A stretch of 23,712 nucleotides of DNA, from assembly GCA_002256025.1 (NCBI GenBank), contig NKIB01012145.1, forward strand, positions 62,001-85,712, in the 5' to 3' direction. Source of the DNA: Asterionella formosa. Taxonomy: Eukaryota. Below, piece after piece: positions 4,201 through 23,324 of this stretch. Position 1 is the first letter of the stretch. The number at the start of each line of letters is the position of its first letter. Below the pieces are notes generated by a model. The model did not search any database. It was given only the letters and a program-made list of their open reading frames with translations, and was not told where the DNA came from. Both the position numbers and the translations under genes were made by a program.

Positions 4201-5354
4201 CTTGATTTCCTCCTTAATCTTTATATCGCGGCGCTCGTAGGCAGCAAACTCCTCCTTCGTATCAATAAGTTCTTTGTGAATCTTGTCGTATTCTCGCTTC
4301 TGTGCTGCAAAGCCGTCTTCAATCTCTTTGACGCGATCATCGGCCAGCTTTAGCTGTTTGCGTTCCAATTCTAATTTTTCTTCAATACACTGCTTGTCAC
4401 AGATTATTTTTTTAGATTCCTTCACAGTCTGCATCATGTTGATCTGGTATAAAATGTTTTTCTTCCGCCGTATTTCACGCTCCTTTCCAAGCAACGCCTC
4501 TGCTTCAACCTTTGCTCCTTCTAAATTGTCTTTTTCCTTTTCTACTGCCTTTACACGGTTCAGCTTCTCTTGGCGTTGCTCCGAAAGTGCTTCTACTTTG
4601 GCGGCGGCAAGATTAGTCTCCTCAACGAATTTGTTGGATCCAATGATGTCCTCAAGGTATTCCAAAAGTCCCTCATCGTTTTCTGTCTTCCCCTTTGGAG
4701 GCATCATGGAGATCATCTCCACTTCTCCCTGCAAAATCAAGAATCGATTATTATCCAGGTCGATACCCTTGGATCCAAGGTAAGCCGCGACGCCTTTGAA
4801 AGAGCAGTTTTTTCCATTGAGCTTGTATTGTGATGAGTTGTCTGTCCTGGCCAATCTCTCAACAACGCACTCTGTTTGGGGGACAAGTTCATAGTCGTCG
4901 TCTCCGTCACCAGTGTCGATTATTTCTTGAAAGTACACGGATACACGAGCGTACTGAGGAGGGTTCTTCTTGACAGCATCTGAGTTGTGAATAAGCTCAC
5001 TGACTTTGTTCAAGCGAAGTTTTTTGGCTCGCTTTCCGAAGACAAAAAGCATGGCATCGATCACATTTGACTTGCCAGATCCGTTAGGACCCACGATTGA
5101 CGAGAAGCACTTGTGGAAGGGTCCAATCTCGCGAACACCAGCGTATGATTTGAAGTTTTCAAGAACCTGGTTTCATCAAGACGCAAGTGAGGTCAGACGC
5201 GAAGCTGCCTGCGTCGGAAAAACGCGGTGCAACACAAATGACTTACCATCTTTGTGATCATTAGTCGCTGTGGCGGTCTATCTTCGACGCCCATGATTCC
5301 TTCTTCGCCAAAGGCTGGCGCGTTCAGAGAAAGATCGAATTCTTGCTCTGTCAT
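1218..5354 (-). CDS. SMC4: Structural maintenance of chromosomes protein 4 (condensin subunit), ~1327 aa; exons 5354-5247, 5166-3676, 3602-1218
   Basis: Splicing gives RLMITKM|VLENFKSYAG...IVGPNGSGKSNVIDAMLFVFG (Walker A), FLILQGEVEMIS (Q-loop), hinge motifs GILGRLGDL and RWRVVTLDGGLIETSGTMAGG, signature LSGGEKTLSSLAL and Walker B YVMDEIDAALD. Phase-0 introns: 5246-5167 (GTAAGT..CAG, 80 nt) and 3675-3603 (GTGAGT..CAG, 73 nt). Confidence 0.96.
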
Positions 5355-5653
5355 GGTGGTGGATACCAAATCTACGTGTTGATTGTGCTTCTCTGAAATT
5401 CTGATAATAAAGTACGAGCAGGTGAGACGACGAGGCAATCGAAATTCAAATCTCAAAACCGTCACTTATTACATTCGTTCCAGCATCTACCGGGATACGA
5501 CATGTACCAGAGACCAGGTCCTACCGGTATATTATGTACCAGTGCGGGTACCAGTAGCTAGACGCTACGTAGTATCACACAGGTCTTTTACTACCAGTAC
5601 CAGGTACCTGGTACCAGGCGCTCTGAGACGAAGGCAACTACGATACTCTCAGG

Positions 5654-5753
5654 TACCTGCAAGTTGCGGTGATTTTGCTGAAACTAAAGATTTAGCTATC
5701 TTTATCTATGATTAAAATGTTAGTTCGAGCAAAATGACCGCAACTTGCTGGTA
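5654..5753. mobile_element. MITE copy 1 (~100 bp including TA flanks, ~26-bp TIRs, Tc1/mariner-like), in the divergent SMC4/GSS promoter region
   Basis: Left end TACCTGCAAGTTGCGGTGATTTTGCT and right end AGCAAAATGACCGCAACTTGCTGGTA are inverted repeats. Highly similar copies lie at 11706 and 20628. Confidence 0.85.
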
Positions 5754-5926
5754 TTATATATTAGTACTGGACGAAAGACGGTTTTTACTATAAGGGAAAC
5801 ACAGATAAACTTCTCTTTTACCGTACCAGGTACCAGAAACCATTCTTTTGATTATAGCCAGCCCTACACTATAGAGCATAGAGTGTTATCATTTTATCAT
5901 TTCTTCGTTTCCCCACACACCGCACC

Positions 5927-7615
5927 ATGAGAAGAAACAACAGGAGGCGCTATTGTGCGTTCAGAAACAAAGCAGCAATGGTGTTGGCCTTGAACTCTCT
6001 GCATTGCTTCCCAAGTGTTCGATTTCTGACTCTCGGATTGGCCCTCGGTGAGAGGAACACCCTTCCCTTGGAAAAATTAACTGCTCATGCCAATTCTTAC
6101 GCATCGGCGCGTGGACTTCAGGTGGAGAAACGTACCGGCGATGGCTCTTCGCTCTACGAATGCGCTCCAATGTCCTTACTTCCAAATGCTTACCCGAAGG
6201 AAGCGTTTTGTCGTGCCCAATCTCTAGCCATGCCCTTCAACCTATTGGTAGATCGCATCAGTCGAGACGGAAACTTCTTGGTGAATACATTGGGAGGTGG
6301 GGTTGCGGATGCAGATCCTTTTACTGGAAAGCTTCTCAAATTGTACAAGAAGATATACATGGAAGATCAAGATACATTTGCTAAATCGGCAGACTTGTTG
6401 GGAATTCTGCGATCGGATTACATGTTGAACTTTAAAGGACAAGGACAGCCACTGGAACTCAAACAAGTGGAGCTCAACACAATCGCTGCTTCATTTGCTG
6501 GGTTGGCAGTCAATGTCGCCGCTTTGCATCGGCACTTAATTTCGAGATTCCGATCAGATGTGCATGATTTTATTTGTGTCAATAAAGGTGTCATTAGCGG
6601 CTCTGCTGACGCCGAATTGTCCGACGACGATGGAGTACCAGAAAATCCGGCCTTACTTTTTATACCAGAAGCCATGAATGTTGCACACGAACGTTATAAG
6701 AGCAGGTTTCCAGATTCCGACCCAGTAATTCTTTTTGTGGTGCAAGAAGGCGAAACGAATACAGTGGACCAGAGGATGCTTGAATTTCGTTTATGGGAAG
6801 CACATGGAATTCCAGTCGTTCGCATGTCTTTGACTAGAGCACAAACAGACTTGCACGTCGATCCAAGTACCGGAGCGGTCCACATTACTACAGGAGGAGG
6901 GCGTGAAGAAGTATCCGTCGTATATTTTCGTTCTGGGTATGCTCCGACGGATTATCCGGATGGATATGAAGGAATTGAATGGGAGGCAAGAGAACGGATT
7001 GAACGGTCACGTGCCACGAAGTGCCCGAGTTTGGGATATCACCTAGCAGGAACCAAAAAGGTGCAACAGGAATTGGCAAGGTCAGGATGTCTTGAGCGCT
7101 TCTTTCCTGATGTCAACGAAGCTCCCATCGTAACAGACATTAGAAACGTTTTTGCTGGACTTTACAGTTTGGGCGAAGATACCGCACCTGAAGATCTAGA
7201 AGCAGTCAATGATGCTATCAACGGATCTGAAGGACGATATGTGCTCAAGCCACAGCGAGAGGGAGGTGGCTATAACTTTTATGGTAATCAACTGGCTGTG
7301 AAACTTAAAGAGAATATCGAACGAGCACCATCTAGTGATGATATCAAGCTTGGAAAAGGACTCGCGGAATTTATATTGATGGAAAGATTATTTCCGCCCC
7401 AACAACAGGCCGTGCTCTTACGGTCAGGAAGGGTACAAGGCAGTGGAGCGAGTATTTCTGAACTGGGCTGTTTCGGTACATTGGTTGTTTCAAGTGAAGG
7501 AGTTGTGGTTCACAACAAATACGCCGGCTTTTTACTTCGCACTAAATTCAGCAATGTTGACGAAGGAGGTGTTGCTTCTGGATTCGCCACATTGTCAAGT
7601 CCCTTTCTCTGCTAG
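5927..7615 (+). CDS. GSS: Eukaryotic-type glutathione synthetase, 562 aa (alternative in-frame ATG at 5978)
   Basis: Single ORF with the motifs LRSDYM, KQVELNTIAASF, YFRSGYAPTDY, KCPSLGYHLAGTKKVQQELA, VLKPQREGGGYNFYG, SELGCFG and GFLLRTK..EGGVASGF. Confidence 0.95.
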   Translation: MRRNNRRRYCAFRNKAAMVLALNSLHCFPSVRFLTLGLALGERNTLPLEKLTAHANSYASARGLQVEKRTGDGSSLYECAPMSLLPNAYPKEAFCRAQSLAMPFNLLVDRISRDGNFLVNTLGGGVADADPFTGKLLKLYKKIYMEDQDTFAKSADLLGILRSDYMLNFKGQGQPLELKQVELNTIAASFAGLAVNVAALHRHLISRFRSDVHDFICVNKGVISGSADAELSDDDGVPENPALLFIPEAMNVAHERYKSRFPDSDPVILFVVQEGETNTVDQRMLEFRLWEAHGIPVVRMSLTRAQTDLHVDPSTGAVHITTGGGREEVSVVYFRSGYAPTDYPDGYEGIEWEARERIERSRATKCPSLGYHLAGTKKVQQELARSGCLERFFPDVNEAPIVTDIRNVFAGLYSLGEDTAPEDLEAVNDAINGSEGRYVLKPQREGGGYNFYGNQLAVKLKENIERAPSSDDIKLGKGLAEFILMERLFPPQQQAVLLRSGRVQGSGASISELGCFGTLVVSSEGVVVHNKYAGFLLRTKFSNVDEGGVASGFATLSSPFLC

Positions 7616-7802
7616 CTAAATAATGACATTGGAAATTCTCAAAATAAAAATTCATACCGGTAGTTCATTAATTTACTGGGCCGTGCGACCAAGTTTGGTA
7701 CGTAGATTGTTAACAAGATGTTGAGAATTCAAACAAAGTAATTCATGGGGTGTATGCTTCTTGTCACGTAAGTATGTGAAGAACCATGTAGGCATACTAC
7801 TT

Positions 7803-9347
7803 TTAGAGGTCAAAGAAAGTCAAAGGGTCAGGCTTTCCAATGGCATGAACCTCAAAACCAATCTTTCGAAGTGCATTGTGGTCCAAGAGGTTGCGTCCAT
7901 CAAAGAGAAAGGCAGGCTTGGCCATGGACTTAAAGATGCGTGTGTAGTCTAGGTCCTTGAAACAGTCCCATTCAGTCAATACGCAAATAGCGTGTGCACC
8001 ATCACATGCCGAGTAAGCGTCTGGTGAGGTGGTGACCGATTTGTCAAGTCCTGGAGTATTTGTGTGGTTCACGTGACAAGTGTAATCCATCTCAATCCAC
8101 ATATCCTCACGCTTGACTTCTGGATCGAAAATGTGAATATTGGCTTGCTCCTGGAGCAAATCACGAACCACAAACATGGAAGGAGTCTCACGGACATCAC
8201 CGGTGTCCTTCTTGAAGGCATAACCAAGAATAGCAATCTTCTTTCCAGTCACAGTGTTGAACATCTTTCCAACAATTTTTTCTGTGAAACGTTTCTTCTG
8301 GTAGTCGTTCATCACGATGACTTGATTCCAGTACGCAGCGCATTCGTCCAATCCATAGGACTCGCAGAGGTAGACAAGGTTGAGAATGTCCTTTTGAAAG
8401 CAAGAGCCCCCAAAGCCGACCGACGATTGCAAGAATCTGCGACCAATGCGATCGTCCATGCCGACAGCGCGGCTAATCTCGTTAACATCAGCTCCAGTGG
8501 CTTCGCAGAGAGCTGAGATGGAGTTGATCGAGGAGACCCGTTGGGCAAGGAATGCGTTTGCAACCAACTTGGATAGCTCCGAAGACCACAAGTTGGTGGT
8601 CAAGATTCTTTCCCGAGGCACCCAGTTAGCGTACACATCGGCAAGGAAGGTGGCTGCCTTGATGCCAGCTTCGTTCTGCTGTCCCCCAATGAGGACACGA
8701 TCCGGCTTGAACAAATCAGTCATGGCGGTACCTTCCGCGAGGAACTCTGGATTCGAAAGCACCTGGAAGTCTAGGCCCTTGTCGTTGGATTGCAGGACGC
8801 GAGCAATAGCATGTGCCGTTCTAACAGGCACAGTACTCTTTTCCACCACGATCTTGTTGGTAGTGGCAACCTCAGCAATCTTGCGCGCACAAAGCTCGCA
8901 GTTCTTGATGTTGGCAGCACGTCCAGCTCCAATCCCCGTCGTCTTCGTAGGAGTATTGACGGAAATGAAGATCACGTCGGCTCTTTGGATTTCGGCGTCG
9001 ATGTCAGTGGAGAAAAAGAGATTCTTGCCTCGACATGCCTGGACTACCTCAAGGAGGCCTGGCTCGTAAATAGGGAGCTCATCAGTGTTCCAAGCATCAA
9101 TCTGGTTCTTGGAGATATCACACACGCAAACACGGACCTGCAGACGAATGAATTGACAAGTGTAAGCTAAGGGTGGACAGGGGGATGGCAGGTCCAGTGT
9201 CGGACCAAGGCTCTAGCGAACAACCGTAGCTGAAACTGAAACTGAAGTGAAACTCACTCTGGGGCACATCTTCGCAATCACCGCCATGGTCGGTCCGCCG
9301 ACGTATCCGGCTCCCATGCACATCACGTAGACATCGAATTCGCTCAT
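7803..9347 (-). CDS. UGDH: UDP-glucose 6-dehydrogenase, ~474 aa; exons 9347-9258 and 9137-7803
   Basis: Exon 1 [30 protein letters not shown] carries the Rossmann GxGxxG. Phase-0 intron 9257-9138 (GTGAGT..CAG, 120 nt). Exon 2 has [40 protein letters not shown], catalytic [10 protein letters not shown] and [11 protein letters not shown]. Confidence 0.96.
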
Positions 9348-9729
9348 TGGATTAGAATGTGTTCCAGTTCGGGACCGATGGTGTGCGTGGGTGTTTGTTG
9401 AGTGATGTGGAAGATGCTAATCTAAATTCTATTCTTTGGCTGCACAATGATGCTGCACTATCGCATCTATTACTGAGTATCAGACTACCGGTAGACTCTA
9501 CCTTTTAAAGTTTACGTGTACATACATAGGTAAATACACAGTACGAAGTGGGGAGTAAACTGAACAGCTACTTACTCCGCAGCTATACTCAAATTTTTTG
9601 AATTTTTAACAATTCGTTGGAAAACAATCACGTTGCTCCTCTTTGAATATACAGCTAGTATAGAGTGATAAGTTACACAACCATTTTACCGGACACTGAG
9701 GTCGATGTGTACCGTATGTAAAAGGTAGC

Positions 9730-10560
9730 TACATACGACAAATTCCACACACGAGTATATGGAAAACGGAATCCAGAATCAGCTTGGATGCAGTAATGCC
9801 TGAAGTAGAAAATGAGCATACCATCATCAGGAAACAATGACAGTATACCGGTAGTATACTGGTATGCATAGAGGCTCCTGTTATGATGATGCCAGTCTCA
9901 CCAGAACAGTATGTGGGTATAATATGTGTCATGTATCCTGTCGGATTAACAATGGAACAGAACTCACATGGATTCGGTAAGTTTATAAAATCATACACTA
10001 TTCCTCCTTACTACAGTATTACTCTAGCATGCTCATAGACAAATGCTTTTTTTTCTTGTGAAGGAGCGAGAAACACCAATGGCTGCAATCAAAGCTGAGC
10101 AACTGGGGGGATGGTGGTGTAGCTATGTGCTGATGGTTACCAAATGTCTTTAATTGGACAAAGTTTGATGCAGCCTCATCAGGCCCTATGAACCGATATT
10201 GTTATGAACCCAAGGTGCATTTCCAATTGTCATCAATATGGTCCATTTACAAGCTAAAAATTAGGTTGCAAAAGGAAGTGTATCCTTTTGTGTTTCCTTC
10301 TTCGCCCAATATTCTATCCAGAATAATGGCATCACGAGTTCCGGTGACACAGAAAATTGCATGGTGAGTCCACAAGTCCTGCTCAGCTGCAACCGATGCT
10401 GAAATGCAGCCAAAACAGTGTACCATTTCAGAATGTCACCCCATGTGATCCTGGCAAAACCCATGATGATTTTCTAGTTGCAGTTCACCCTCCTGAACAT
10501 TATTTGCATGTTCACTTCCCTCTCTCGTCCATAAAGCGTCACGATTCAGCGAAATAAAAA
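9730..10560. pseudogene. Decayed coding-like, CpG-depleted relic, probably transposon-derived; identity unknown
   Basis: Protein-like reading frames broken by TGA/TAA stops on both strands. One intron-like segment, 9977-10063 (+, GTAAGT..poly-T..AAG). Only 5 CpG counted by eye in 9781-10260. Confidence 0.3.
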
Positions 10561-10607
10561 GCAGAACTCTTCTAGTTGCAAAAACGAGAGAACACACAGC
10601 ATATGAG

Positions 10608-10715
10608 TATGACTTTCAGGAAATCATTTTGACTTTCAGAAAATTCCTATGAATTTCAGGAAATGACTATGACTTTCAGGAAATTTCAGGAAATTTCAGC
10701 ATTTCTCAGGAAATC
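10608..10715. repeat. Degenerate minisatellite with core TTTCAGGAAAT (units ~10-20 bp)
   Basis: TATGACTTTCAGGAAAT / TTTGACTTTCAGAAAAT / TATGAATTTCAGGAAAT / TATGACTTTCAGGAAAT / TTCAGGAAAT / ...CTCAGGAAAT read directly. Confidence 0.8.
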
Positions 10716-11199
10716 TGTGCAATTTCCTTAAGTCTCCAAAATTTGGCTTTTCTGGCCAAGGTACTAAAATAACCACCTAAATTTTGTTCCGGAATAAAAG
10801 TACTACTACTAAGCTAGCTTGTTTCTAGGTGAGGCCGTTATTGTATATCCTCCACCTATAGATACCTAGGTAGTATGGTAGTAGGTTGTTCATATGTGAC
10901 CATGTTATTCTGTACCCTCCATCATCTACTAGAAGGTCCGGTAGTAGCGCACGTTCTATGCGCACCTTTCAGTTTCGACGCACTCCCGATGGATCGTCTC
11001 ATGCCTGCCGGACGAAAAAGACCAGCTTTCGACGAAAATAATATTCCTTAAGTAGTTTAGGAAAGCATTACTCTTATTGACCGATGATGATTTGCAGAAT
11101 CAGCCTCTGAACATGACTCAGATTTGCTGACTGATGAACAGGTTCAGCAAACCGTCTTCTAGCTTCGGAAGCAACATAGGAATCCTACCTTTCTACATT

Positions 11200-11350
11200 T
11201 AGAACTTGCTGACAATGGCTGGGATTTTCTGACACAACTAGAATTTGCTGACAATTACTAAAATGTATTGACTTCAACTACTAGAACTTGCTGATTATGA
11301 CAAAACTTGCTGACAGTGACTAGAATTTGCAAACAATGACTAGAACTTGC
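11200..11350. repeat. ~20-bp minisatellite, consensus TAGAAYTTGCTGACAATGAC, about 7-8 diverged copies
   Basis: Units such as tagaacttgctgacaatggc, tagaatttgctgacaattac, tagaacttgctgattatgac, aaaacttgctgacagtgac and tagaatttgcaaacaatgac. Confidence 0.85.
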
Positions 11351-11651
11351 GAATAAGAATCGATTTTCTGAATGAAGTATATATATGAACAAACACACCA
11401 ACCAATACCCCTGATAGCCAAAAGTAAGCAAGATTTGCTTATTTTTGCTTACATTGCTTACTTTTTGTTTCGGGCCACCCCTGTATTGCCCCAGTCATTG
11501 TTGTGTTTTCTTAGCGTTTCCCTGTTTATTAGAAGAATAAAAATAGTATACAACCTATGTCACTTAGAAGTGGTGATCATAAAAACGATTTTAAAGAGTG
11601 AATTGATGACGTTTTCTATATTTGAGCGCCTGTCCTGCGTCACGTTATCAA

Positions 11652-11681
11652 TTTCAGTAAAATGACCGCAACTTTCAGATA
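11652..11681 (-). mobile_element. Orphan terminal inverted repeat related to the MITE left end, in reverse orientation
   Basis: The reverse complement TATCTGAAAGTTGCGGTCATTTTACTGAAA matches the MITE left end TACCTGCAAGTTGCGGTGATTTTGCTGAAA, but the sequence inside it differs from the MITE interior. Confidence 0.7.
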
Positions 11682-11705
11682 TCCCCTGATGATGGTGGTA
11701 CAAGG

Positions 11706-11804
11706 TAACTGCAAGTTGCGGTAAATTTGCTGAAACTAAATGTTTAGCTATCTTTATCCCATATTAATTGTTAGTTCAAGCAAAATTACCGCAACTTGCT
11801 GGTA
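11706..11804. mobile_element. MITE copy 2 (99 bp), ~120 bp upstream of the PCGF start codon
   Basis: TAACTGCAAGTTGCGGTAAATTTGCT...TTTAGCTATCTTTATC...AGCAAAATTACCGCAACTTGCTGGTA; collinear with copy 1. Confidence 0.85.
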
Positions 11805-11925
11805 CCTGGTACCAGGGAACCTGGTGGTATCAGGTAGTGTCTATTGTAATACCGGTAATACAAACAAAGCGGCATAATAGATCTCCTATTGTTGTGTGCG
11901 GTCAAGGTCAAAGTTCTGTGGAAAC

Positions 11926-12817
11926 ATGAGTCTGCAAGATCAGGTCGAGCGGAAACGAATTGCTTTGCCCAGTCCAGAGGAAGCCCCTGCCAAACGAATA
12001 TGCGGCAATGAAGAGCCCAGTAATATGTCCAATGGAATCATCAAATTTGCGTTGGATCCGATCAATCAATATGTGACATGCATCCTATGTTCTGGATACT
12101 TCCGGGATCCAGTTACTATTACCGAGTGCCTTCACACATTTTGCAAATCATGCCTCGTTCTCGCCATTTCGCGAAAAAACTCGAAATGCCCCACGTGCTC
12201 GGTTGACTTGGGTCCGGATCCCTTCAAGACGACTTTGAGTGATCGGACATTGCAGGAGTTGGTAGACAAAGTTTTGTTGCCAAATTTATGTGCTCAGGAT
12301 ACGGCTCAGGAAAGGGAGTTTTACAGCAGCCGAGGTATAAATTTAAAACCAGAACACGAAGAAGATTTTTTTAACAAGGAGTTTCCCAAAGACAACGAGG
12401 CACGGAGGGTGTTCGGCTTTGCTAAGAATCTGCAGGTAGGACGATCATACGTGGCATTGAGCAAAATCGTGCACAATTCAACCTCTCACGTCATCATTCT
12501 CGCTCTCGTTTCGTTCACATTAGACGGATGAACACGTGGAATTCACTTTAGTTCCAGAAGTTGGCTCGTCCATGCCGAAGCTGCTAAAACCAATGATTCG
12601 AACACTTGGAATCCTCCAAATTGTCCAACTGAAGAAGTACCTAGTAGTAAAGCTTAATATGCAACAGAATGACGTGTCATCTTTTGAAATTCTGTGCCGA
12701 GGCAAGGAGCTTGGAAACAAATTGAGTCTGACATTTGTTAAGCGGACCATATGGCTAGATTCCAAAAGTGACCTGCAACTCACTTATAATTGCCTGAAAT
12801 ATGTAGTTCGGCGATGA
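11926..12817 (+). CDS. PCGF: Polycomb group RING finger protein (PCGF/Psc/BMI1-like; C3HC4 RING plus RAWUL-like C-terminus), ~267 aa; exons 11926-12435 and 12524-12817
   Basis: INQYVTCILCSGYFRDPVTITECLHTFCKSC...CPTC..DRTLQELVDK is the typical PCGF RING. Phase-0 intron 12436-12523 (GTAGGA..TAG, 88 nt) joins it to TDEHVEFTL...LKKYLVVKL...FEILCRGKELG..LSL..LQLTY, which is RAWUL-like. Confidence 0.88.
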
Positions 12818-13143
12818 CAACAATAATTACCTAGATATGACAGTTGATTCCACCATCCCTGCAACGAGATGCCATGTTGAACCTGAACACATATTGCTAT
12901 CAAAAATTGATAAACAGAATGAGATGATAGATATGAAAAAACCTATTTAGTAACAGCAGGTAATATGCAATTGTATGATGATAGCAAATGAAGTATGATC
13001 AAGAGTGCAGATAATTCTAATCATTGCTAGTGAGCCAATGAAGTGAGGAAATATCAACCATGATGTAATGGTTGCATGTGTGGACATTGACATGATGTGT
13101 TTGAAAGGGTGATGGTTTTCCGGATTGTAAATGTAAGGCACCA

Positions 13144-16100
13144 CTATTGAACTATGTCGCCACCACCGACGAGGGTAGGTCGCTGAGCTCCCCCAGGAGC
13201 CATACAGGACCTAGCCACGCTTTCAAAGACCTTTTCTATCTCAGTAGCACAGCGCGTGAACGGATGACTCCAGAACTGGTATCTTTGGTTCTTGATAAGC
13301 TCGATAAAGGTAATAAGAAGTCCCCACTAAAAGAGAGTTGAAAGAAATAGGTGAGACATTACGGATACTTGTATTGGCAGATTCGAGCAACCTTGTGTGA
13401 ACTTACAGGATGCGGACGATGAAGGATGAGACGTTCGAGGAGAACGCGGGTCACCTGTTCTTTTACAGCAGAAATTTTCGATTCGCTGAAAAGGAATAGC
13501 ATGACACATGAGAAATAGTGTGTGTGGCTCGAAGGGAAACGGAGCTGGTTCGCAATAGCGTTCAAACTGATGTATCGACCGTGGTCGTCAAGCTCCATAA
13601 GCTTCTGCAGGATTTCCAATTCCGGAGTGTTGGCAAGGCTCTGGATCTGAGCACTCTGTAACCTGCTGATTGCTTGAATTCCTACATAAAGAACCAAGGA
13701 ATTAATACGAGGAGCATCTACTTCTTTCGTTCCCGCTTTATAGAGACGCGGTAACAAGCCGGAAATGAAGTCTCCACGTTCGCCCTTCAAGAAATTTTCT
13801 AAGCTCCCACGCATGGCCTCAATTGGCCCCATGACATTCGAAAGGATGACTGGGTTCTGTGAGATCTCGATCAATGAATCAATCTTCAAGTTAGGAGTAA
13901 AAGGGTCCGGCAAGGTCATGCCCTTTGGTACAGCAGAAAGGATGACATTGCGAAGCTGAACACAATTCTCTGGCAAAATATTGCAAAGCGAAAGATGATA
14001 TCCAGCAAGAAATGACGGGAAATCATGGAGTAAAATAAGGAGAACTCGAAGAGTTCCTTCGTATAGTTTCTTAATGGCAGGCCCCATGTCAATTTTCCCA
14101 AGGTGAGGTTCTAGGAACAAGAAGATATCCACAAGGAGCTGGTGGGCCACCCCCCACCCTTTCTGGCCCTGCAGTAACAATAGGTTGGGCAGGAAAGTAC
14201 GATGTGACACCAACTCGAGCCAAGCGAACGCAAAGCCAGGCAGAACAAGAGGCTGTGCAACATGAAAAGCCCCACCGAATATAGCGAGAATACTGCTTTG
14301 AATAGGATCAAACACCGGGTCAGGAGAATTCATGTCCACGGTTACGTTCAAAAGAAGTCTATACCAAGGCCTCTGGTCCCATGGTTTGAGCCCTTGCTTC
14401 TTGTTCTTTTCAAAGTCGAACATAATGCATCGAATGACAGCACCGAGAAACGTGTTCAACATGCCGACTCTCTGGGCGGTTGTTTGTTCCTCGCTCCCGC
14501 CGCCATTCAAAAACTTAATTTGAAGGGGAAGTAGCTTCGCGTAGATGTCAATGACAGAATAATTCAGAACGTTGCCATTCCCATCAGCTCCGCCATTGGA
14601 TGTCTTCAGAACGGCCTCAACCACAAGCTGGGCTGCTAGGCGGAAGAAGCGCTCAGTCTGTTCGTCCGATTTTCCAACTCCGTTTTGCTGTAAAAGCTGC
14701 AGATACTGTGTCAATACCTTATCGTTTGCCACAGCTTCGCTGTGCAAACGAATCCAACCGTCAAGCAAAAACGTAACTTGCTGTTTGGCATTGGGAGGAT
14801 CTGTGCGCGCAAAGCGAAGAAGAGTCTCGGCCGCACTCTTTGTTCCATTAGAATAAGCAACGAGCGATGCGGTGGACAGACTACTGGTGACGTCGATTGT
14901 AGCATGACGAGGTTCTGTTGTAGCTTCTGGTCGAATACTTCTAGCTTGTTGTTCGATTCCGCCAGAGGATCCACGCACTTCATCGAGCATTCGAAGTATT
15001 GGCTTTCGCAGAGTTTGGCTTACTTGTGGGTCTGCTTGACTTCTTCCTTCGACAATCTTGGTCATAAGGTCCATCAGCTTGGGAAAGTCAGATGGAGCAG
15101 CTATCCTCTCTAGGAATGCAGTTCGAATGAACAACAGAGAAAACTCAACCCAAACTGGATTGCGGCCACTATCAGCGCTTGCGCATAGAAAGCTATCAAG
15201 TTCTTGCGTCGACACAAGATTGCTGCGAACAAGGAGAAGCAATACAGTGCGATGGAGCTTCTTCTGGGCTTCGGTTTCTGTCGGAGCGTAAGTCGCCCAG
15301 GTACCTAAGTCTTTTCCTAGCTGTGGACATGATCCATTGATCTTTTCAAGCAAAGCTACAAGAGCCTCAAGACGGAGGGGCTCGGTCAACCGGAGTTCGT
15401 AAAGGCGCTTAAACACGCTTTGAGAAAAGCTCAACACAGCTTCTTTTTCTGACTGTGTAAGATTCTGTGGAACAACTTGAGGAACAGCAGCCAGCAACTT
15501 GCGAATGTCATGGTCCGCAGGTAGCATAGAAAAGGTGACTTCAGCGGCACGAGGTCCGGTTGAAGACAAGAGGGCGGAAACAGAGCCATCCATTTTGGTC
15601 GCGATTGTTTGAAGAGCCTCAAGGTTGAGTGGCTGGTCAGTGTGGCTGGCACCTTCAAGATTTGGATTTGATCTCGATGGTGTCAGACCGGAGGAGCCAT
15701 ATCCTCCGGCTGTGGGCAGTCGAGGCATTCGTTGGAACGCCTCATAGACTCTGAGTTGTTCCGGGCGTAGACCTCCGGGTTTCGGACGAAGTGGTTCGGG
15801 CAGCGCACCAGGATAACGCTGGTTTCCATTGCCAAGGACAGCCATGTCGTAGTATGGTTGGCCCCCGGTTTGCTCCCTGTGTTTGCGACGGGCAGTGAGG
15901 CCTGGGGAGAGGGCTTCGTCGACATCACGCACCGCCTTTTCGGTGGCAGCCTTTTCAATGAGCATGCAACCAAGCTCCAGGTTATCAGTAGCACAAATGG
16001 AGACACACTGTTCAATGATTGTTTGCTCCTGTTCGGTCAATTTTTCAGAGCCACCCGCACTGTTGGTGAGCAATTGCCGAAGATGAGTTGATATACTGGT

Positions 16101-19100
16101 GCGAAGCGGGTCTCTACAAGTAACCAAAGCCAAGCTTCCTGCAAGGTTTGCAACCATCAACTGAGCTGCTTTTCGAGTCTTGTTTTCGTCACCTTCAGTT
16201 GCAAAATCTTTGGTCACAATTTCTTTTGTGGTTATGCATGCGATTGTGACACTTCTTTCAACAACCGGTTGAATAATCTCCCTAATAGCACGATCAACCG
16301 CCATAGGGACTGCTTTCTTGAGAGTCACGGTGCTGAGAGCAGTAGTCAGACCAGGGGATATAGTGCTTCCAGAAGGTTGCTGAATCAGTTGAGCTAAGCT
16401 GGGGTTTATTGTGACATACGCAGCGAGATTTGGAATAACTGTTTGCTGCTCCCCTCCGGCGGTCTTCGACTGTCCGCCATTTGAAGTTGCGGTAGCTGCT
16501 GTTTGTGGTATGCTACCAGTGGATACATTAGACACCAGAGTGTTCCCGTCGGGGCTTCCAAGGATCGGCCCACCTGGAAGCGGAGTTGCCGTAATGGCCG
16601 GGGCGGGGGCGCTAGGGGGTGGTGCAGTTGATACCACAGTGATCTTGACATTGAAATCGGGATTCTTCTCTTTGACTGGCTTGATTCGAAGGGCCAAGGC
16701 TTCAGTTCGGGGAGAAATTTCTTCAAGCTTTATGTTCAGATTCTTGCAAAGTACCTCCACTTCAAATTTTATGTTCATCTTCAAATCGTCAACTTGGTAC
16801 AGTGCACGGAACACTCCCAAAAGTCCCATAACCCAAGGATTTGGAGGGCGAAAAACAACTGAGCTCTTAGCACCCTCTAGAATCTTCGCTACAAAGGGCG
16901 TTACAGCAATCAACATTCCATTCTCGTATCCTTGAAAGAGTAGTTCTTTACAGTCCAACATCACTTGAAGAATGGGGCGATTCCTTGCAATAGTGATCTG
17001 ACCCAACCAACTTCCGAGATTCTTCAGAAGACTGCGCTCCGACGTAGAAGTTGTAATCTTGGGGGAGCGCAAGAGCTTTCCAATATTCAAGTAGACACTC
17101 GACAAGATGGATATGATCAGTCCCTTTCCATAGTCACCCAAGTGATCCAGAAATGCTAAGTATAGAGCATGAAAATTGGGCTGAGCACTGATCCGTTTTA
17201 CGACCAAGTAATGGCCCAGCCAATCAAAATACTGTGGCTTTAGCATCTCTCTGAGTTCTGCAGACTTCGCTTCGACGTTTGAAGGTGAAATATTATTGAT
17301 CAAGAATTGCACTCGATCCAGAACTGCATCTGGGGGAGCTTCGTGTTGAACTTCGACTTCTACTTTGTTGTTGACAGCGCGTCCAAGTTTAGGACCGAAA
17401 ACAGGAACTCGGTTTTCAGCTGGTTCGGGACGAGGAAAAGCAACCGATGACAGCTCAATGGAGGACGACACAGATCGATTTGGCACTGAGAAAGCACCGC
17501 TTGGTTGTGGATTGGGTGGAGTTGCACTCATAACACTAGAGCTCCCCCCTCGTGACCGATCTCCATCACCGCTGCTTCCACCGATACTGCCGCTGTCAGT
17601 TGGACCATGCTGCTGAGGAGGCTTGCTCTGACTCTCCGACATAGCAGTCTCAATTTCTCCAACCAATTCGGCGTAACCATCCTTCAAATGAGGAATTTGT
17701 ACAATATGAGAACAATATTGGGGCCACTCGTGTAAACGGTCCTTGAACTGCTCCAAAGCAAACATTCCGAACCGAAACATTTTCCCACTACTGGAGGTGT
17801 TCGAACCAGGGGGGGAGGAAGGGGGGCGACGCAAGGCTTCCAAAACATACCGAAGAGCGATTCCCAAGGTAATGCTGTTGACTAATTGCTCCTTGATAAG
17901 AGTACCAAACAATATTCCGGTAATGCGAAGCTCTTTCTCTGGGTACTTGGAAAAGAATCGATATTCGTCGAACAGGTTGCGAATCATACAAGCAAAGATC
18001 TCATTCTCTCGGGTGTCGCCAGATGTTTTGAAACGCTTAAGCATTTCCACAACCTCTCCGATGCTCTGTTCTGAGGTATAAATCTTTTGAAAATATGAAT
18101 TGGCCATTTCGTCAATGTCATCATCGTTGGTTGGCGAAGGCTTTTGCTGCAATCCTTGAGAAGCATTGATTTGCTGCTGCTGAAAGGATTGACTAAGACT
18201 GGCTCGAATCGAAGAATGTGTCGAGGCACAAGCCTCGGTCAAAGACTTGATGCTATCGAGTAAAGTGATGGGCTGACCATCACTGGGAATCGTTTGTTGA
18301 AGTAGTGTGGAATCTAATGAATGGAGAATTTGAAGGGAAAGCAACATATTCTCCAATGACACCAAGACTGAACTATCGCGGGGCGCCGCCGTTGGGTACA
18401 TCTTGGCCAAGTAAGCCACCAACGCAGCTGCAAACAAGACTCCGCTGGATGAGAACCGTTCCGTCAGCCATGGCTTGAGTTGAAGGATGTTCTTGTCCGC
18501 CATCACAAACGCAACAGCCAACGAAAACTCGGGATCTTTGCTTCCATTCAAAAGCGAGGCTATAGCAGTTTCTGGAGATGGGAGCAGTCGAATAATTTGG
18601 ATAAGGTGCACAATCGTTCCAAGGCGAGTCTGGGGCGCTTCTGAAGCTGTTGACTTCCAGGCTTCAATGCAGGCTGCTGTCACAGTGTTCGGTGAGATAG
18701 CCCAAAGTCGCCGTAATGCAGCGGGTCCGTTTTGCATTCGATGGTTAGAATTGGGCTTGAAAAATAGAGGAATCAGCTCCCGCATCAACTCTCCCTTCAT
18801 TTGCTGTCCACCGGACGGGGCACCATTCAACTGCAGTCGCACAAGAGCACAGAGCAAGACTTCGGGACAACCCCGCAGACCCTCGACAAACAAGTCTCGG
18901 ACTCGTCGCGCTAGAGTAGGAATGTCACTGAGACATAAAAGTCTCTGCAAAACAGCCGCTGATGCCCAGCAACGCGGGTTTGGAGAGGTTGCTCCTTGGC
19001 CTGCGCTCGTTTCAGCATCAGCAGTTTCTGCTTCGTTCAACTCGCAAAGGTAGACTGTCGGCGAGACGGACAACACGGCCTCCAAAAGAGAAGTTTGGCC

Positions 19101-20205
19101 AGCAGCATGGGTCCATTGATAAGTCAAAGCAGCTAATGGAGGGTTCGCCAATGCACCAGATTGATAAAGTTGCAGTAAGGTTTGGAATTGTTCAGTGCTC
19201 GAAATATTGAAATCAAAGAAATCCCATTTTAGCGCCACTTTGGCCCAATCGAGAGATGCAGAATAATCTCTTCGAATGACCGAGGATACGACTGGCAGGG
19301 ACCATCCAATTTCCGACGGGTCATTGTAACTTCCCGGTAGAATACTTCCTAGAAGCGATGAGGATAGTGAGTCCATGGAAAGGGCTTTTTTCGATTTGGA
19401 CGAGAAGAAGTGCAAAATTCTGGCCATCGCAGCTTCGTTCATCCCGCCAGGCAGCATTTCTGCCAGTGTCTGTCGAAAGATGGTTTCATTTCGAGTACAA
19501 GCAGGGCCCACGTCCGCTAGTAGATTTGCGATAACTGAAACTGCATCTGCTGCAGCCATTCGGTCTGCGATGCCACCAGTTGAGAACAGACCACTGTCGA
19601 GGCTGTTACTCCCAGGAAACAGTGAATCCATTTTAATTTGCTTACGTAGATGCTTCTTTAGTTTGCACACGACCCGACTGAGTTGCTCTTGGTGATATGT
19701 TTGTTTGAAACTCAAGTGTTCCGACGTCTCCAAAACTCCTTTCGCTTCTTCGAGGATCGATAAACCTAAAGACTTCGGAAGAGTTTCTTCTAAAGCTGTA
19801 TCCAATGTTTGAACAAGTGCTAAAGCGGCTTTTTCTGCTGCACCTGTGCTTTCTTTGTTTCTCGCAGTCGTTGTCTGGTGATGAAATGACGGAAGGAATA
19901 GGGAAGGAGCATGTGAGCGAGTTTGATTCTGAAGCATTGAGTTGGTATCTTTTCCGTATTCTACTGACCAAATTCCGTATAAAAGGCGACAGAATTCCGG
20001 GGGTAAAGGCGTGTTTTTTACTCTGTATGACTCTGCCGTAGATTTCAACCAGAACAGGCGCTACCGCGCGGGGCCTTCCGGCCCTTTTTGAATGTGAAGT
20101 AAGGTCACTGTTGCTAAACTGAGTCGATGAATATGTATCAGATATAATAGAATCACTAATGCACTCGTTGGATCTGTCTTCTGTTGTTATTACGCCCTCG
20201 CTCAT
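13144..20205 (-). CDS. CNOT1: CCR4-NOT complex subunit 1, ~2295 aa; exons 20205-19969 (less certain), 19874-13407 and 13326-13144
   Basis: Motifs [88 protein letters not shown] and [18 protein letters not shown]. Intron 13406-13327 (GTAAGT..TAG, 80 nt) restores [26 protein letters not shown], with the stop at 13146-13144. A proposed 5' intron 19968-19875 (GTCAGT..CAG, 94 nt) gives [17 protein letters not shown]. Confidence 0.93.
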
Positions 20206-20483
20206 GGGCCATGGCCTAGCCTTTTTATTCTCTTGCTTTGTGTTTGATTTGTTTGGAATTGGCGCTGGCGCTGAAGCTGCTGGCGACACACAGACCAAAT
20301 GGTTATCCTTACCGGTACATACATAACAATATGCCGGCATATCAAATTCGTGCCTCGTACCTGGTACCTGGTAGCAAGTACCAGGGGTACTGTAAATTCG
20401 ATGGATAGTGTGTTATACTTTCAACATGTATAGAATTTGTACCAGGTACCAGGTAGCCTCCAATTGTACCTCGTACCTGGTTG

Positions 20484-20571
20484 CCTGTCGAAGGTCCGGT
20501 GAATGGTTTTTTTACTAAAGAAAAGATATAGCTAAATATCTTGATTAGCGGACCTTCCTGTGGGAAGGTCC
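20484..20571. mobile_element. Degenerate small inverted-repeat element related to the MITE (second subfamily)
   Basis: GAAGGTCCG (20490-20498) and CGGACCTTC (20549-20557) are inverted repeats enclosing AAAGATATAGCTAAA, which resembles the reverse complement of the MITE core TTTAGCTATCTTT. Overlapping hairpin GGACCTTCC-TGTG-GGAAGGTCC. Confidence 0.45.
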
Positions 20572-20627
20572 AGTGTAGTGGAACCAGTTATGAGGTCCTG
20601 TTGCATTGTGCCTATACTCCTACCTGG

Positions 20628-20727
20628 TACCAGCAAGGTGCGGTAATTTTGCTGAAAGTAAAGACTTAGCTATCTTTATCCCAGATTAAAATGTTTGTTT
20701 AAGCAAAATGACCGCAACTTGCAGGTA
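20628..20727. mobile_element. MITE copy 3 (100 bp), ~420 bp upstream of the proposed CNOT1 start
   Basis: TACCAGCAAGGTGCGGTAATTTTGCT...TTAGCTATCTTTATC...AGCAAAATGACCGCAACTTGCAGGTA; collinear with copies 1 and 2. Confidence 0.85.
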
Positions 20728-21205
20728 CCAAGTACCTGGCACCCCACCGTAGACTGGGAAGGTAAGTGTTGAAATGGTCCGTACACCTTCCCGCGGGCTG
20801 GGTCTCGGTTCACGTAGACTCTTACGTGTTCGTAGTACTACCTAGTAACCACTTACTTTCTCTCTCGTCTCTGCTTCCAGCCTTCCTGCAAGATAGACAA
20901 ATTGACCTTCCTGTCAATTAACACGCTGTTTCCTCAATTGATAATCTAAACTATAATTAAATTACAAGCTAAACTAAATGTTTCCTTGCTTTCCAGGCAT
21001 CTTTGCTTCCCGCAAAGTCATTCTGAGACTCTCTTCGAGTTTCCACATTTCCATAGAAATCTTCAATCTTCGATCTCGTTAGACAGCTGATTCACATGGC
21101 AATGCAATATTCGAATTTTTCGATTACAATCAAGTCAAACAATCCTTGTGACTCGAGCTAATTTTCTTGACAGGTAAGGACGGTATTGTAGGTACATCTG
21201 CAAAT

Positions 21206-21490
21206 AAAAACTATCATGAATATAGGATCAAGGGTATCGTACGCTAAGTGGCATAGGATTTTTACATATATGATAGTTTTTCAATCAAAGATATGATCAA
21301 TGTATCATATAATTATGATCATGCAGCAAACTTTTACCAAGCTTGACGTATGATGATACTATCATAGTTATAATACGATTGCATCAAATCATTAGTTAAA
21401 CATGGTCCTATGATGTGTATACTTTTGTCATGCATCTATCTTAGCATGATCATAATTCTCATCGATAACACTGTCTAAAATAGGATGAAA
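21206..21490. repeat. AT-rich patch of TATGAT/ATCATA-type motifs in both orientations, with two perfect inverted pairs
   Basis: AAAAACTATCAT (21206-21217) pairs with ATGATAGTTTTT (21270-21281). AATTATGATCATGC (21311-21324) pairs with GCATGATCATAATT (21444-21457). Confidence 0.6.
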
Positions 21491-21549
21491 TTGATCGAAA
21501 TTTAGAACTATATATAAGAATGGTTTTATGTTCTTGAGTGGCTACAGAA

Positions 21550-22243
21550 TGTTCTACAATGCTCTCATCGCAATGATTGGTGCCGCTTGCACCACTTCCA
21601 CCTTCCCCCCAATCCAATTCTGAATGTTGCTGTACTGCTGGTTGCCTTGCCCTTGTTCCTGCCCTGTTTTCCTTTTACTTCTGAGGGTTCTGAGTTTGAA
21701 TTCATATTTTCCCATTACTATTTAATCCATTTCGTTGTTCCAATCAGCCATACTAACAAAGAGAAGCAATTCATTGTTAGCTGTTCGTGTTTTGCTTACA
21801 CAACAACATGCATTTCGCTTCTATCTTCACTTACCACAAATTGAGGAAGTAAGCAACTGATGCATATTTCTGTAAAAGAATGTGTCAGTTGAAGATTGAA
21901 TGAGAAGCAAAGTATCGATCAATAAATGGGCTCCAACACTGCTGTTTGTAACTTACAAATACTGTTTGTCTACCATTATCCTGAAAGAAGCAACACATAT
22001 GTGTCAGTTTTTCTAACATTTGTAGTTGATCCAAAGATGGCTGATAGGCAGTACTTACCGATTTATTTTGTCCACATTGATGGTTGGCCAGCCACCAAAT
22101 CGAAAAGGAGCTATTGAATCACTGAAAGGGGACAAGTCATTCCGTATTTGTAATCCCAACAAATCATCATCCTGGCATTTGCTCTTGACATGCCGTGATA
22201 CTATGCACAGCTTGTTGATTCCGCCCTTCTCCATCATATTCAC
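21550..22243 (-). pseudogene. Intron-dense relic or unannotated gene with micro-exons; product unknown
   Basis: Three consecutive canonical introns, 22058-21981, 21956-21870 and 21834-21753, each with GTAAGT, a CTRAC branch site and YAG. They are separated by 24- and 35-nt exons. Every spliced frame soon hits a stop. Confidence 0.5.
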
Positions 22244-22527
22244 TCCTTCTTAGCCACATGGTGTATCATCATGTTGTATTGTCACTTCAGTTTTTCGCAT
22301 CATGTGTTGCTTGAGATCCTTCATTTCAGGAAGTGTATGTATGACAAGGAGCTTGAAAGGCTTTTGCTCTTGATTTACCATCTATTGATTCCGCCCTTCT
22401 CCGTAGTCACTCCTTCTAAGCCGCAAGTATCATTGTGCTGTCTTATCACTTTCGTTTTCCGCGTCATCATATGTGATGATCCTTCATTTCAGGAGCAAAG
22501 TGTATGCATGACAAGGAACATGAAAAC
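22178..22527. repeat. Diverged tandem duplication, two copies of ~170-185 bp
   Basis: Shared blocks TTTGCTCTTGA (22178/22363), TTGATTCCGCCCTTCTCC (22215/22385), TCACTCCTTCT, GATCCTTCATTTCAGGA and ATGACAAGGA. Confidence 0.85.
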
Positions 22528-23324
22528 GTGATTTCAAATGTTTCAGCCATGAATACATATATAGGAAGATTTGTAAGTTTAAAAGTACATATAGTTGAAC
22601 ATTTGCATAGTTTTAAACACGCTCATTATACGGCACATCCTGTGTGTACTCATATCAATTTTGATTATATATAAATCAAATATATACAATGCATGATGAG
22701 TTCATAGTTTTCCACGACCTGTTGAATTTTTTCAATTTGTTTTGTGTCAGCCAATTCTTGTACCTACAAGTCAGTGGCTGACTTAAAAAAGCCCCTTAAT
22801 AAACGGGAGTGATCACCAATTTTTCAAATGGTCGAAATCATACATTAATGTATATAGACACATTGACCTTATACATTCGAAGAATTCATATGGCCTAGCT
22901 ACCGGTAGTACTGTATACTTGCTGGGAATTACTTCTATCATGGGAGTACCACAAGAATAGTGCAGCGGAAAACTGAGTAGGCTCATGTGTTTAGGATCAT
23001 TTGATCATATTTTTTATATATCAACTCATTTTGGTGCTTGCTTCTTTGTTCCATACCGGCAGTATTTGCCACATGTCGCTTGTTTCCATGAATCTCTTTA
23101 TGGTTTTTTGAAGACATTGTACTACTAGATAACTGTTATCGTTGTCTTGCTTACTTAAAGTTTGATCATCTTAAAATCAGGTGTTGCTAGCTACAATGAA
23201 ATGAATCGTCAGCCACTACATACAATATTTTACGCTGTCTAGATATGATACCATAAAACCAACAGTGCTATTTACATTATCATATAAAAAATCAGAACCG
23301 AGTTTGAGTAATAGCATATCTTGT

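What the first reader, a model, noticed from the sequence alone, without database searches (positions are those of the whole stretch)
5503..22915. Intergenic TA-CC(W)GG-TA arrays that look like accumulated excision footprints of the MITE
Seen: TACCGGTA occurs at 5522, 7655, 9486, 9846, 11850, 20310 and 22900, all outside the gene models; I saw none in the ~15 kb of CDS. Chained variants occur at 5598-5618 (TACCAGGTACCTGGTACCAGG), 5824, 11803 (abutting copy 2), 20358-20373, 20440-20455 and 20621 (abutting copy 3). Related words: TACCTAGGTA (10863), TACCAGTA (5549), TACTGGTA (9857), TACAGTA (10012) and TACTGTA (20388, 22909). The CC(W)GG words equal the MITE's two ends (TA-CCW... ...WGG-TA) fused together. 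Established: Tc1/mariner excision leaves a few terminal bases between duplicated TAs (Sleeping Beauty leaves TACAGTA/TACTGTA). Inference: repeated insertion and excision at earlier footprints builds heptamer arrays in promoters, so the promoters carry a record of transposition. An alternative is that this is a transcription-factor or chromatin motif that the MITE targets.
Basis: partly seen in the sequence, partly recalled or inferred. Interest (0 to 1): 0.75.

Follow-up and report, generated by a model that had tools for sequence, protein, structure and literature searches.

The report
Transposon excision scars in diatom promoters
The short TA-bounded palindromes that crowd the DNA in front of this diatom's genes are most likely scars left when TA-targeting jumping genes cut themselves out, but the small element first blamed for them only lands in these scars and does not make them.

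Summary
The words are real: 7 TACCGGTA and 9 TACCWGGTA in 7.9 kb of spacer DNA, none in 15.8 kb of genes; 28,528 and 26,886 genome-wide. They behave as scars. Among copies of repeats, 16 of 80 six-base indels are TA versus TA-CCGG-TA, none a tandem duplication, and the filled form is usually the minority. The named maker is wrong. The 88-bp MITE is CAAG...CTTG with its flanking W as a direct repeat (45 of 54 copies), often lacks TA flanks, and so inserts into TAC-CWG-GTA like NuwaI/Harbinger3_DR. The better source of TACCGGTA is a set of resident pogo-like (DDE_1) elements ending TA|CCG...CGG|TA, with empty paralogous TA sites and near-identical copies; CCG overhangs joined through their terminal CG would give this scar (inferred). 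CCWGG units also arise at bare TA, mostly in G|TA|C context, but their maker was not found. The words are 4 to 11 times denser upstream than downstream of ORFs, so later use as factor sites is not excluded. This is a known mechanism at unusual density. The scan noted it repeatedly elsewhere in this genome and similar scars in other genomes.

The parts
5522..5529 (.). TACCGGTA, solitary scar-type word, divergent SMC4/glutathione synthase spacer
5549..5556 (.). TACCAGTA, probable CpG-transition product of TACCGGTA (inferred)
   Evidence: class counts; 5 TA-duplicating indels of this form
5592..5618 (.). Chain TA-CCAG-TA-CCAGG-TA-CCTGG-TA-CCAGG
5657..5750 (+). MITE copy 1: core CAAG...CTTG 5660-5747 between direct CTG repeats (5657-5659, 5748-5750); target TAC-CTG-GTA
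5824..5836 (.). TA-CCAGG-TA-CCAG, about 100 bp upstream of the glutathione synthase ATG (5927)
7655..7662 (.). TACCGGTA between the convergent ends of glutathione synthase and UDP-glucose dehydrogenase
9486..9493 (.). TACCGGTA, 139 bp upstream of the UDP-glucose dehydrogenase ATG (9347, minus strand)
9846..9864 (.). TACCGGTA (9846) followed by TACTGGTA (9857)
10863..10872 (.). TACCTAGGTA, single site, status unclear
11652..11681 (-). Lone MITE end fragment
11709..11801 (+). MITE copy 2: core 11712-11798 between direct CTG repeats
11803..11816 (.). TA-CCTGG-TA-CCAGG next to MITE copy 2
11850..11857 (.). TACCGGTA, 76 bp upstream of the RING-finger gene ATG (11926)
20310..20317 (.). TACCGGTA, about 0.7 kb upstream of the NOT1 ATG (19631, minus strand)
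20358..20373 (.). TA-CCTGG-TA-CCTGG-TA
20440..20455 (.). TA-CCAGG-TA-CCAGG-TA
20621..20629 (.). TACCTGGTA next to MITE copy 3
20631..20724 (+). MITE copy 3: core 20634-20721 between direct CAG repeats; target TAC-CAG-GTA
22900..22915 (.). TACCGGTA (22900) and TACTGTA (22909) in a region of high-copy repeats

Best explanation
Two layers. (1) Scars. TA-targeting cut-and-paste elements insert at a TA, duplicate it, and leave a few of their terminal bases when they excise (shown: TA versus TA-x-TA states in paralogous repeats; inferred: that excision made them). TACCGGTA most likely comes from the resident pogo-like DDE_1 families that end TA|CCG...CGG|TA: two 3' CCG overhangs anneal through their terminal CG and are filled in (inferred; CC plus GG joining gives the same word). 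CpG transitions erode it to TACCAGTA/TACTGGTA (inferred). CCWGG units also arise at bare TA, mostly at G|TA|C, so earlier scars attract new ones and chains grow; W looks random from unit to unit. Their maker is unidentified: an unseen CC(A/T)-ended TA element, or one untemplated A added during repair of pogo breaks. (2) Users. The 88-bp MITE inserts in the middle of TAC-CWG-GTA, duplicating CWG (or only W), as PHIS elements do, and would excise without a trace. My odds by step: TACCGGTA are TA-site scars 0.9; CCG-ended pogo is the main source 0.65; CCWGG units are scars of the same kind 0.7; the MITE is a user, not the maker 0.88.
For: Indels between repeat copies in 931 kb (221 G000 loci plus the window): 16 of 80 six-base indels are TA versus TACCGGTA, 0 of 16 tandem duplications, filled form in fewer loci in 10, in more in 1, tied in 5. 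They are 16 of 25 TA-duplicating six-base indels against a 7.7% background (p 1.6e-12); CCAGG is 4 of 10 TA-duplicating seven-base indels against 7.5% (p 0.0045). Composite chains at single TAs: L035, inside a MITE copy; L102 against L147 and L280. Pogo-like elements: DDE_1 hit, TIRs starting CCGTA in four variants, copies 99-100% identical, TA at 36 of 37 ends, empty paralogous TA sites for L129 and L135. One repeat holds a pogo insertion and a TACCGGTA scar at two neighbouring ATCGGAG|TA|TAGA sites. MITE: direct W in 45 of 54 copies; W is T 59, A 60 of 126 single ends; near-consensus copies L057, L048 and L025 lack TA; two ends share one CAG in L030, and a one-base gap between GCAAG-defined ends at C141:7180/7182 implies the same. 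In 32 related loci from metagenomes (244 kb) the words occur 5 and 6 times.
Against: No single site was seen in all three states (empty, pogo-filled, scar). No CC(A/T)-ended TA element was found in 0.9 Mb. No pogo end lies directly after CCGG|TA (0 of 43), and CCGG-CCGG dimers are rare (6 in 400 kb). About 28,000 scars stand against 135 exact ends of the main pogo family, which needs long, repeated turnover. No empty paralogous site of the MITE and no autonomous partner were found, and the inner G is better kept (116 of 126) than the outer C (105 of 126), so a 1-bp duplication is not excluded. Contigs of run X2 show no gap across 11789-18277 and 18279-20657, so no allele difference at six of the window's motif sites (tables were truncated). 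None of the window's own sites has an empty paralogue in the data held. Polarity counts use loci that partly overlap and are not independent.
Confidence: 0.7

Rival explanations
1. One reading: the MITE is a TA-duplicating element with ends TA|CCW...WGG|TA. With the same W at both ends, its 3-base overhangs CCA and CCT would anneal by one base and give TACCWGGTA exactly; T/T and A/A classes would come from flips of the interior between the TIRs.
For: It would explain why CCWGG scars and MITE flanks share the (G)G|TA|C(C) context and why no other CCW-ended element was found. The test of W against internal sequence has little power because the family is star-like (p 0.97). The family is large: 1,496 exact ends.
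Against: TA on both sides in only 16 of 32 clean copies, on neither in 6; copies 0-1 change from consensus lack TA; ends abut across a single CAG; W is 50:50; another repeat family also starts after CCWGG with variable W. It cannot explain TACCGGTA, the commoner word.
Confidence: 0.1
2. The words are transcription-factor or chromatin sites kept by selection in promoters, and mobile elements merely aim at them.
For: Per kb upstream against downstream of long ORFs: TACCGGTA 1.72 against 0.41, TACCWGGTA 1.58 against 0.14, while TA is 75 against 69. TACCGGTA and TACATGTA are predicted promoter motifs in Phytophthora (PMC3597505, passages), and PsMyb37 binds TACATGTA (PMC11134190, passages).
Against: The words appear whole, as insertions with TA duplication, inside transposons and other repeats, which selection on point mutations does not give. 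Only 1 of 27 UDP-glucose dehydrogenase orthologues has TACCGGTA within 800 bp upstream and none has TACCWGGTA (these are at most 84% identical in protein, so a weak test). Upstream bias is also expected from insertion into open chromatin (general knowledge). As a secondary use it remains open.
Confidence: 0.1
3. CCWGG chains are heptamer microsatellites that grow by slippage or by templated (snap-back) repair from a rare seed such as G-TACCAG-TA, with no excision per unit.
For: 111 of 142 TACCWGGTA have a GG or CC neighbour, against 34 of 172 TACCGGTA; 1 of 4 CCAGG indels is a pure tandem duplication; L035 has three identical CCAGG units.
Against: Adjacent units have the same W in 23 and opposite W in 22 dimers, where slippage predicts same and snap-back predicts opposite; 3 of 4 CCAGG indels are not tandem duplications; one-base snap-back templating fits 2 of 5 de novo cases I inspected by eye. 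Chains are short: 322 single units, 41 doubles, 14 longer in 400 kb.
Confidence: 0.2

Closest known systems
Excision footprints of Tc1/mariner and pogo elements (Sleeping Beauty; Tc1; ZB; Passer)
   Same: A few terminal bases between two TAs. SB leaves TACAGTA, TACTGTA, TACATA, TACGTA, TATGTA, TACTA, TAGTA, TATA (bioRxiv 10.1101/659086, abstract and passages); footprints of 0-4 bp for the pogo element Passer (PMC9976928, passages) and 0-3 bp for ZB (PMC7913693, passages); taCATGta named as a rare Tc1 footprint (PMC3520976, passage).
   Different: Here the 2+2 form CCGG dominates the longer scars, one word reaches 28,528 copies and is the commonest 8-mer sampled, scars are chained, and a five-base CCWGG class has no identified maker.
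NuwaI group of the PHIS superfamily and zebrafish Harbinger3_DR
   Same: CWG target duplication (PMC4482050, parts 1-2 of 4 read); extended palindromic target AAACACCWGGTCTTT (PMC3016246, passage); precise excision in PIF/Harbinger (PMC2836001, abstract and passages). Fits the MITE.
   Different: NuwaI TIRs usually start GGG and were found only in animals; this MITE starts CAAG (or GCAAG), lies in a diatom, has no known autonomous partner, and aims at sites that another transposon class appears to create.
Phytophthora promoter motifs M93/AM-20 (TACATGTA) and M94 (TACCGGTA)
   Same: TA-flanked 8-base palindromes abundant in stramenopile promoters; M94 is the same word (PMC3597505, passages).
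   Different: Read there as factor sites; a footprint origin was considered and dismissed for TACATGTA (PMC3520976, passage), and PsMyb37 binds it (PMC11134190, passages). Here de novo insertion at TA is seen and no binding was tested.

Membership tests
Tc1/mariner-pogo excision footprint (TACCGGTA) | Insertion at a TA with the TA duplicated, absent from paralogous copies | tested here: met
   16 of 80 six-base indels, 0 tandem duplications, polarity 10:1:5
Tc1/mariner-pogo excision footprint (TACCGGTA) | Inner bases match the termini of a resident TA-duplicating element | tested here: met
   CCG...CGG ends, DDE_1 transposase, empty TA paralogues
Tc1/mariner-pogo excision footprint (TACCGGTA) | Same site seen empty, element-filled and scarred | tested here: inconclusive
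   Only neighbouring look-alike sites in one repeat; none in 48 element ends examined
Tc1/mariner-pogo excision footprint (TACCGGTA) | Produced by the transposase in an excision assay | not testable with these tools
   bench test
Tc1/mariner-pogo excision footprint (TACCWGGTA) | Insertion at a TA with the TA duplicated | tested here: met
   4 of 66 seven-base indels plus composites; small numbers
Tc1/mariner-pogo excision footprint (TACCWGGTA) | Resident TA element with CC(A/T) ends | tested here: inconclusive
   None in 0.9 Mb of 68 Mb; divergent helper-gene elements listed were not read
Tc1/mariner-derived (Stowaway-like) MITE, for the 88-bp element | TA target duplication | tested here: not met
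   TA on both sides in 16 of 32 clean copies; ends abut across CAG
Tc1/mariner-derived (Stowaway-like) MITE, for the 88-bp element | Outermost bases CCW...WGG inverted as part of the TIR | tested here: not met
   W direct in 45 of 54, inverted in 1
PHIS / NuwaI-type MITE, for the 88-bp element | 3-bp CWG target duplication | tested here: inconclusive
   Direct W shown; 3 bp against 1 bp unresolved, no empty site
PHIS / NuwaI-type MITE, for the 88-bp element | Extended palindromic target preference | tested here: met
   Reconstructed target (GG)TAC-CWG-GTA(CC)
PHIS / NuwaI-type MITE, for the 88-bp element | TIR starting GGG | tested here: not met
   Starts CAAG or GCAAG; so not filed as NuwaI
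PHIS / NuwaI-type MITE, for the 88-bp element | Autonomous partner with DDE and Myb/SANT ORFs and the same TIR | tested here: inconclusive
   150 DDE_Tnp_4 matches scored; the MITE TIR was not an end of any of the 30 loci read
Transcription-factor site (Phytophthora M94/AM-20 type) | Promoter enrichment | tested here: met
   4 to 11 times upstream over downstream, ORF-based proxy
Transcription-factor site (Phytophthora M94/AM-20 type) | Conservation at orthologous promoters | tested here: inconclusive
   1 of 27 distant orthologues; no close relative available
Transcription-factor site (Phytophthora M94/AM-20 type) | Protein binding or reporter effect | not testable with these tools
   bench test

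The most novel reading that the evidence does not exclude
Excision scars of TA-targeting transposons are the main source of promoter-side sequence words in this diatom (about 55,000 sites). They feed forward, because scars attract new TA insertions and serve as the programmed landing site of unrelated elements (the CWG MITE and at least one more family), and they have been adopted as factor-binding sites. The same route would explain the TA-flanked palindromes read as factor sites in other stramenopiles (TACATGTA and TACCGGTA in Phytophthora) and why each diatom lineage has its own word.
Probability: 0.3. Interest if true: 0.8.

Novelty: new variant of a known kind. Interest (0 to 1): 0.5.

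Why it matters
Footprints are usually treated as rare by-products. Here they are probably the commonest words of the non-coding genome, about one per 1.2 kb, concentrated upstream of genes. That would give a countable record of past excisions and of how a diatom repairs breaks, and a warning that motif-finding in stramenopile promoters can return transposon scars. It also shows one transposon class apparently building the target of another. The correction matters too: the MITE should be annotated as a CWG-type element, not as a mariner-type one.

Tried and rejected
MITE as maker of the scars: rejected. Imprecise-excision words of a CWG element (such as CAG-AG or CAG-CAG between TAC and GTA): 0-1 each in 200 kb, no support. 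Tc1 (PF13358) and mariner (PF01359) searches of G000 gave 0 matches, but these are weak negatives: the pogo protein itself passes the PF13358 cut-off and was missed, and the PF01359 control rang nowhere. The GCAATTCCC repeat, first taken for a relative of the MITE, has one fixed flank and no transposase ORF in L104, so it was dropped. A search for empty MITE sites in 861 kb gave only tandem artefacts. Laying four runs on 5350-23100 was swamped by repeats; the indel tables were cut to the best-supported rows, so allele differences at most motif sites could not be read. The ends of divergent elements that carry the pogo helper gene were not read. De novo searches for CC(A/T)- or GC-ended TA elements found none. 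Literature: TACCGGTA, TACCAGGTA, TACCTGGTA or TACCWGGTA occur in 1 paper of the library, TACATGTA in 5; four wider searches for genome-wide footprint accumulation or diatom pogo/MITE work showed, by listing only, no paper on this; two searches gave reviews and tool papers. Supplements were not read; those of PMC4482050 may list stramenopile CWG families.
Full report
Setting. The window holds SMC4, glutathione synthase, UDP-glucose dehydrogenase, a RING-finger gene and NOT1. The best named relatives of the dehydrogenase are diatoms at 80-84% identity, and the runs that hold the stretch are labelled algal or freshwater. It lies in G000, 68.4 Mb in 15,436 contigs.

Observation. Every listed coordinate is right. 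In 7,918 bp of spacer DNA, TACCGGTA (7) and TACCWGGTA (9) exceed Markov expectations of at most 0.7 and 0.43, and both are absent from 15,794 bp of gene bodies. Genome-wide there are 28,528 and 26,886, against 1,718 and 902 for reversed controls. TACCGGTA is the top 8-mer in 200 kb, O/E 48. TACAGTA/TACTGTA are not enriched. In a 400-kb sample the words are 1.72 and 1.58 per kb within 500 bp upstream of long ORFs, 0.41 and 0.14 downstream, 0.04 and 0.01 inside, while TA itself is level (ORFs stand in for gene models, so some 'upstream' DNA is intron).

The MITE's boundary. The family has at least 1,496 exact ends. If its ends were CCW...WGG, the W would be inverted. It is direct: T/T 29, A/A 13, T/A or A/T 0 of 48 copies, and T/T 31, A/A 14, A/T 1, other 8 of 54. 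The first 30 loci were found with a T/T query, but pattern-found copies show both classes, and single ends are T 59, A 60 of 126. W does not track internal sequence (p 0.97, weak because the family is star-like). TA flanks both sides in 16 of 32 clean copies and neither in 6; copies with 0-1 change from consensus have CAC/GTG, AAC/GTT or CAC/TAC flanks. In L030 two ends abut across CAG alone. So the element is CAAG...CTTG, 88 bp, inserted in (GG)TAC-CWG-GTA(CC). A 1-bp duplication with G...C termini fits nearly as well, since the inner G is kept better than the outer C (116 and 105 of 126). No empty site and no autonomous partner among 30 of 150 scored Harbinger-type loci were found. It works like NuwaI (CWG duplication; PMC4482050) and Harbinger3_DR (target AAACACCWGGTCTTT; PMC3016246), and such elements excise precisely (PMC2836001), so it would leave no new word. 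It fails the GGG-start feature of NuwaI and is not filed as a member.

The words are insertions at TA. One MITE copy (L035) carries TA(CCAGGTA)3TCGGTA and TA-CCGG-TA-TGA-TA where the consensus has single TAs. An all-against-all comparison of 221 G000 loci plus the window (931 kb, partly overlapping) gave 2,162 distinct indels (earlier, smaller runs agree). Of 80 six-base indels, 25 duplicate a TA; 16 insert CCGG and 5 CCAG/CTGG, against 7.7% CCGG among genomic TA-N4-TA words (p 1.6e-12). None of the 16 is a tandem duplication, and the filled form is in fewer loci in 10, in more in 1, tied in 5. Of 66 seven-base indels, 10 duplicate a TA and 4 insert CCWGG (background 7.5%, p 0.0045); 7 of their 8 sides are G|TA|C. 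Two more classes exist: TA-(C/G)-TA (66, of which 40 could be plain tandem duplications) and TA-GC-TA (21, 4 tandem).

A maker for TACCGGTA. G000 has 93 DDE_1 matches. One family of about 2.46 kb ends TA|CCGTAAAACCTGG, with copies 99-100% identical and 135 exact ends against 44 control; others end CCGTATACTTC, CCGTAAATCCCG and CCGTAAACCTC, and one ends CAGTG. TA precedes 36 of 37 ends. Paralogous empty sites confirm the TA duplication for L129 (against L123, L125, L161) and L135 (against L104). In one repeat, a pogo copy and a TACCGGTA scar sit at two neighbouring ATCGGAG|TA|TAGA sites about 135 bp apart; these are not the same site. Tc1/mariner cuts leave 2- or 3-base 3' overhangs of terminal bases (bioRxiv 10.1101/659086, passages). 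Two CCG overhangs can pair through their last two bases and fill in to TA-CCGG-TA; this step is inference. TACCAGTA/TACTGGTA (96) is the commonest one-change neighbour, ahead of 41, 23, 12, 10 and 9, as CpG decay would give.

CCWGG and the chains. CCWGG units cluster (111 of 142 with a GG or CC neighbour) and CCGG units mostly do not (34 of 172); adjacent W is the same in 23 and opposite in 22 dimers. Chains are short: 322, 41, 11, 2 and 1 for one to five units in 400 kb. Pogo ends follow CCWGG|TA in 5 of 43 cases against 0.9% (p 4e-5) and CCGG|TA in 0, which supports re-entry into chains. No TA element with fixed CCA or CCT ends was found in 0.9 Mb; every family starting after TACCWG had a variable W. 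The maker stays open. An unseen element with G|TA|C preference, an untemplated A, and some slippage all remain possible.

Against a conserved factor site. In 32 metagenome loci of at least 3.5 kb around related dehydrogenase genes (244 kb; of 80 fetched; unnamed, 60-84% identical, not all necessarily diatoms) the two words occur 5 and 6 times, about 0.02 per kb against 0.4 here; 1 of 27 upstream regions has TACCGGTA; two loci are rich in TACACGTA instead. These relatives are too distant for a strict test. Phytophthora work lists TACCGGTA as a promoter motif (PMC3597505), dismisses a footprint origin for TACATGTA (PMC3520976) and shows Myb binding to it (PMC11134190), so secondary use is plausible and untested.

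Strain data. Contigs of run X2 cover 11789-18277 and 18279-20657 without gaps, and X6 covers 11773-12647 without gaps, so no indel at 11803, 11850, 20310, 20358, 20440 or 20621 in those; gaps in contigs over 5815-6383 and 5923-9704 were not displayed. The window's own sites are therefore assigned by class, not shown one by one.

Verdict. Observation confirmed; scar origin well supported; maker misassigned. The mechanism is known, and the scale, promoter bias and reuse of scars as targets are unusual. I found no paper on it in the searches named under Tried and rejected. My reading was fixed before I opened the scan's notes; they report the same thing many times in this genome and split on the MITE. 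All papers were seen as passages, abstracts or listings, as marked; none was read whole.

Noticed in passing
L129:2176-4639, L131:1964-4432, L135:1963-4626: The CCG-ended pogo-like elements carry a second, convergent ORF of about 140 aa with no Pfam hit; 152 matches in G000.
   Followed up: partly
G000 repeats: TA-GC-TA (21 events) and TA-(C/G)-TA (66 events) are further TA-duplicating insertions; TAGCTA is also enriched in the window's spacers (9 against about 2). No GC-ended element was found.
   Followed up: partly
L003, L059, L091, L184, L002: A repeat family beginning TGAGC(G/A)ATC, followed by TATAGGGTTAG, starts directly after CCWGG with variable W in several copies: a second user of the same site; class not determined.
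   Followed up: partly
L217, L219: Related metagenome loci carry 8 and 9 TACACGTA, partly chained: a different lineage-specific TA-flanked word.
   Followed up: partly
L034, L043, L015, L016, L055, L040: Several MITE ends have one or two extra bases beside the target repeat (such as CAG-AG or CT-CTG), possibly traces of nested insertion and imprecise loss.
   Followed up: no
L070-L090 (for example G000:C2488): A near-identical PIF/Harbinger family starting AGGGTCGTTCTTATCA, at many contig ends, looks recently expanded.
   Followed up: no
L273-L301: A repeat with end GCAATTCCCGCTCCAGCTATC (250 exact matches) is preceded by RG and by T eight bases out in 24 of 29 cases; class unknown.
   Followed up: partly
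window 20742-23100: Mosaic of high-copy repeats, depth several hundred times that of the genes in four runs.
   Followed up: no
window 23325-23712: Tandem repeat with a 115-bp period, 95-97% identical.
   Followed up: no
window 10594-10714 and 11191-11347: Short degenerate tandem repeats (10/20-bp and about 39-43-bp period) inside multi-copy DNA.
   Followed up: no
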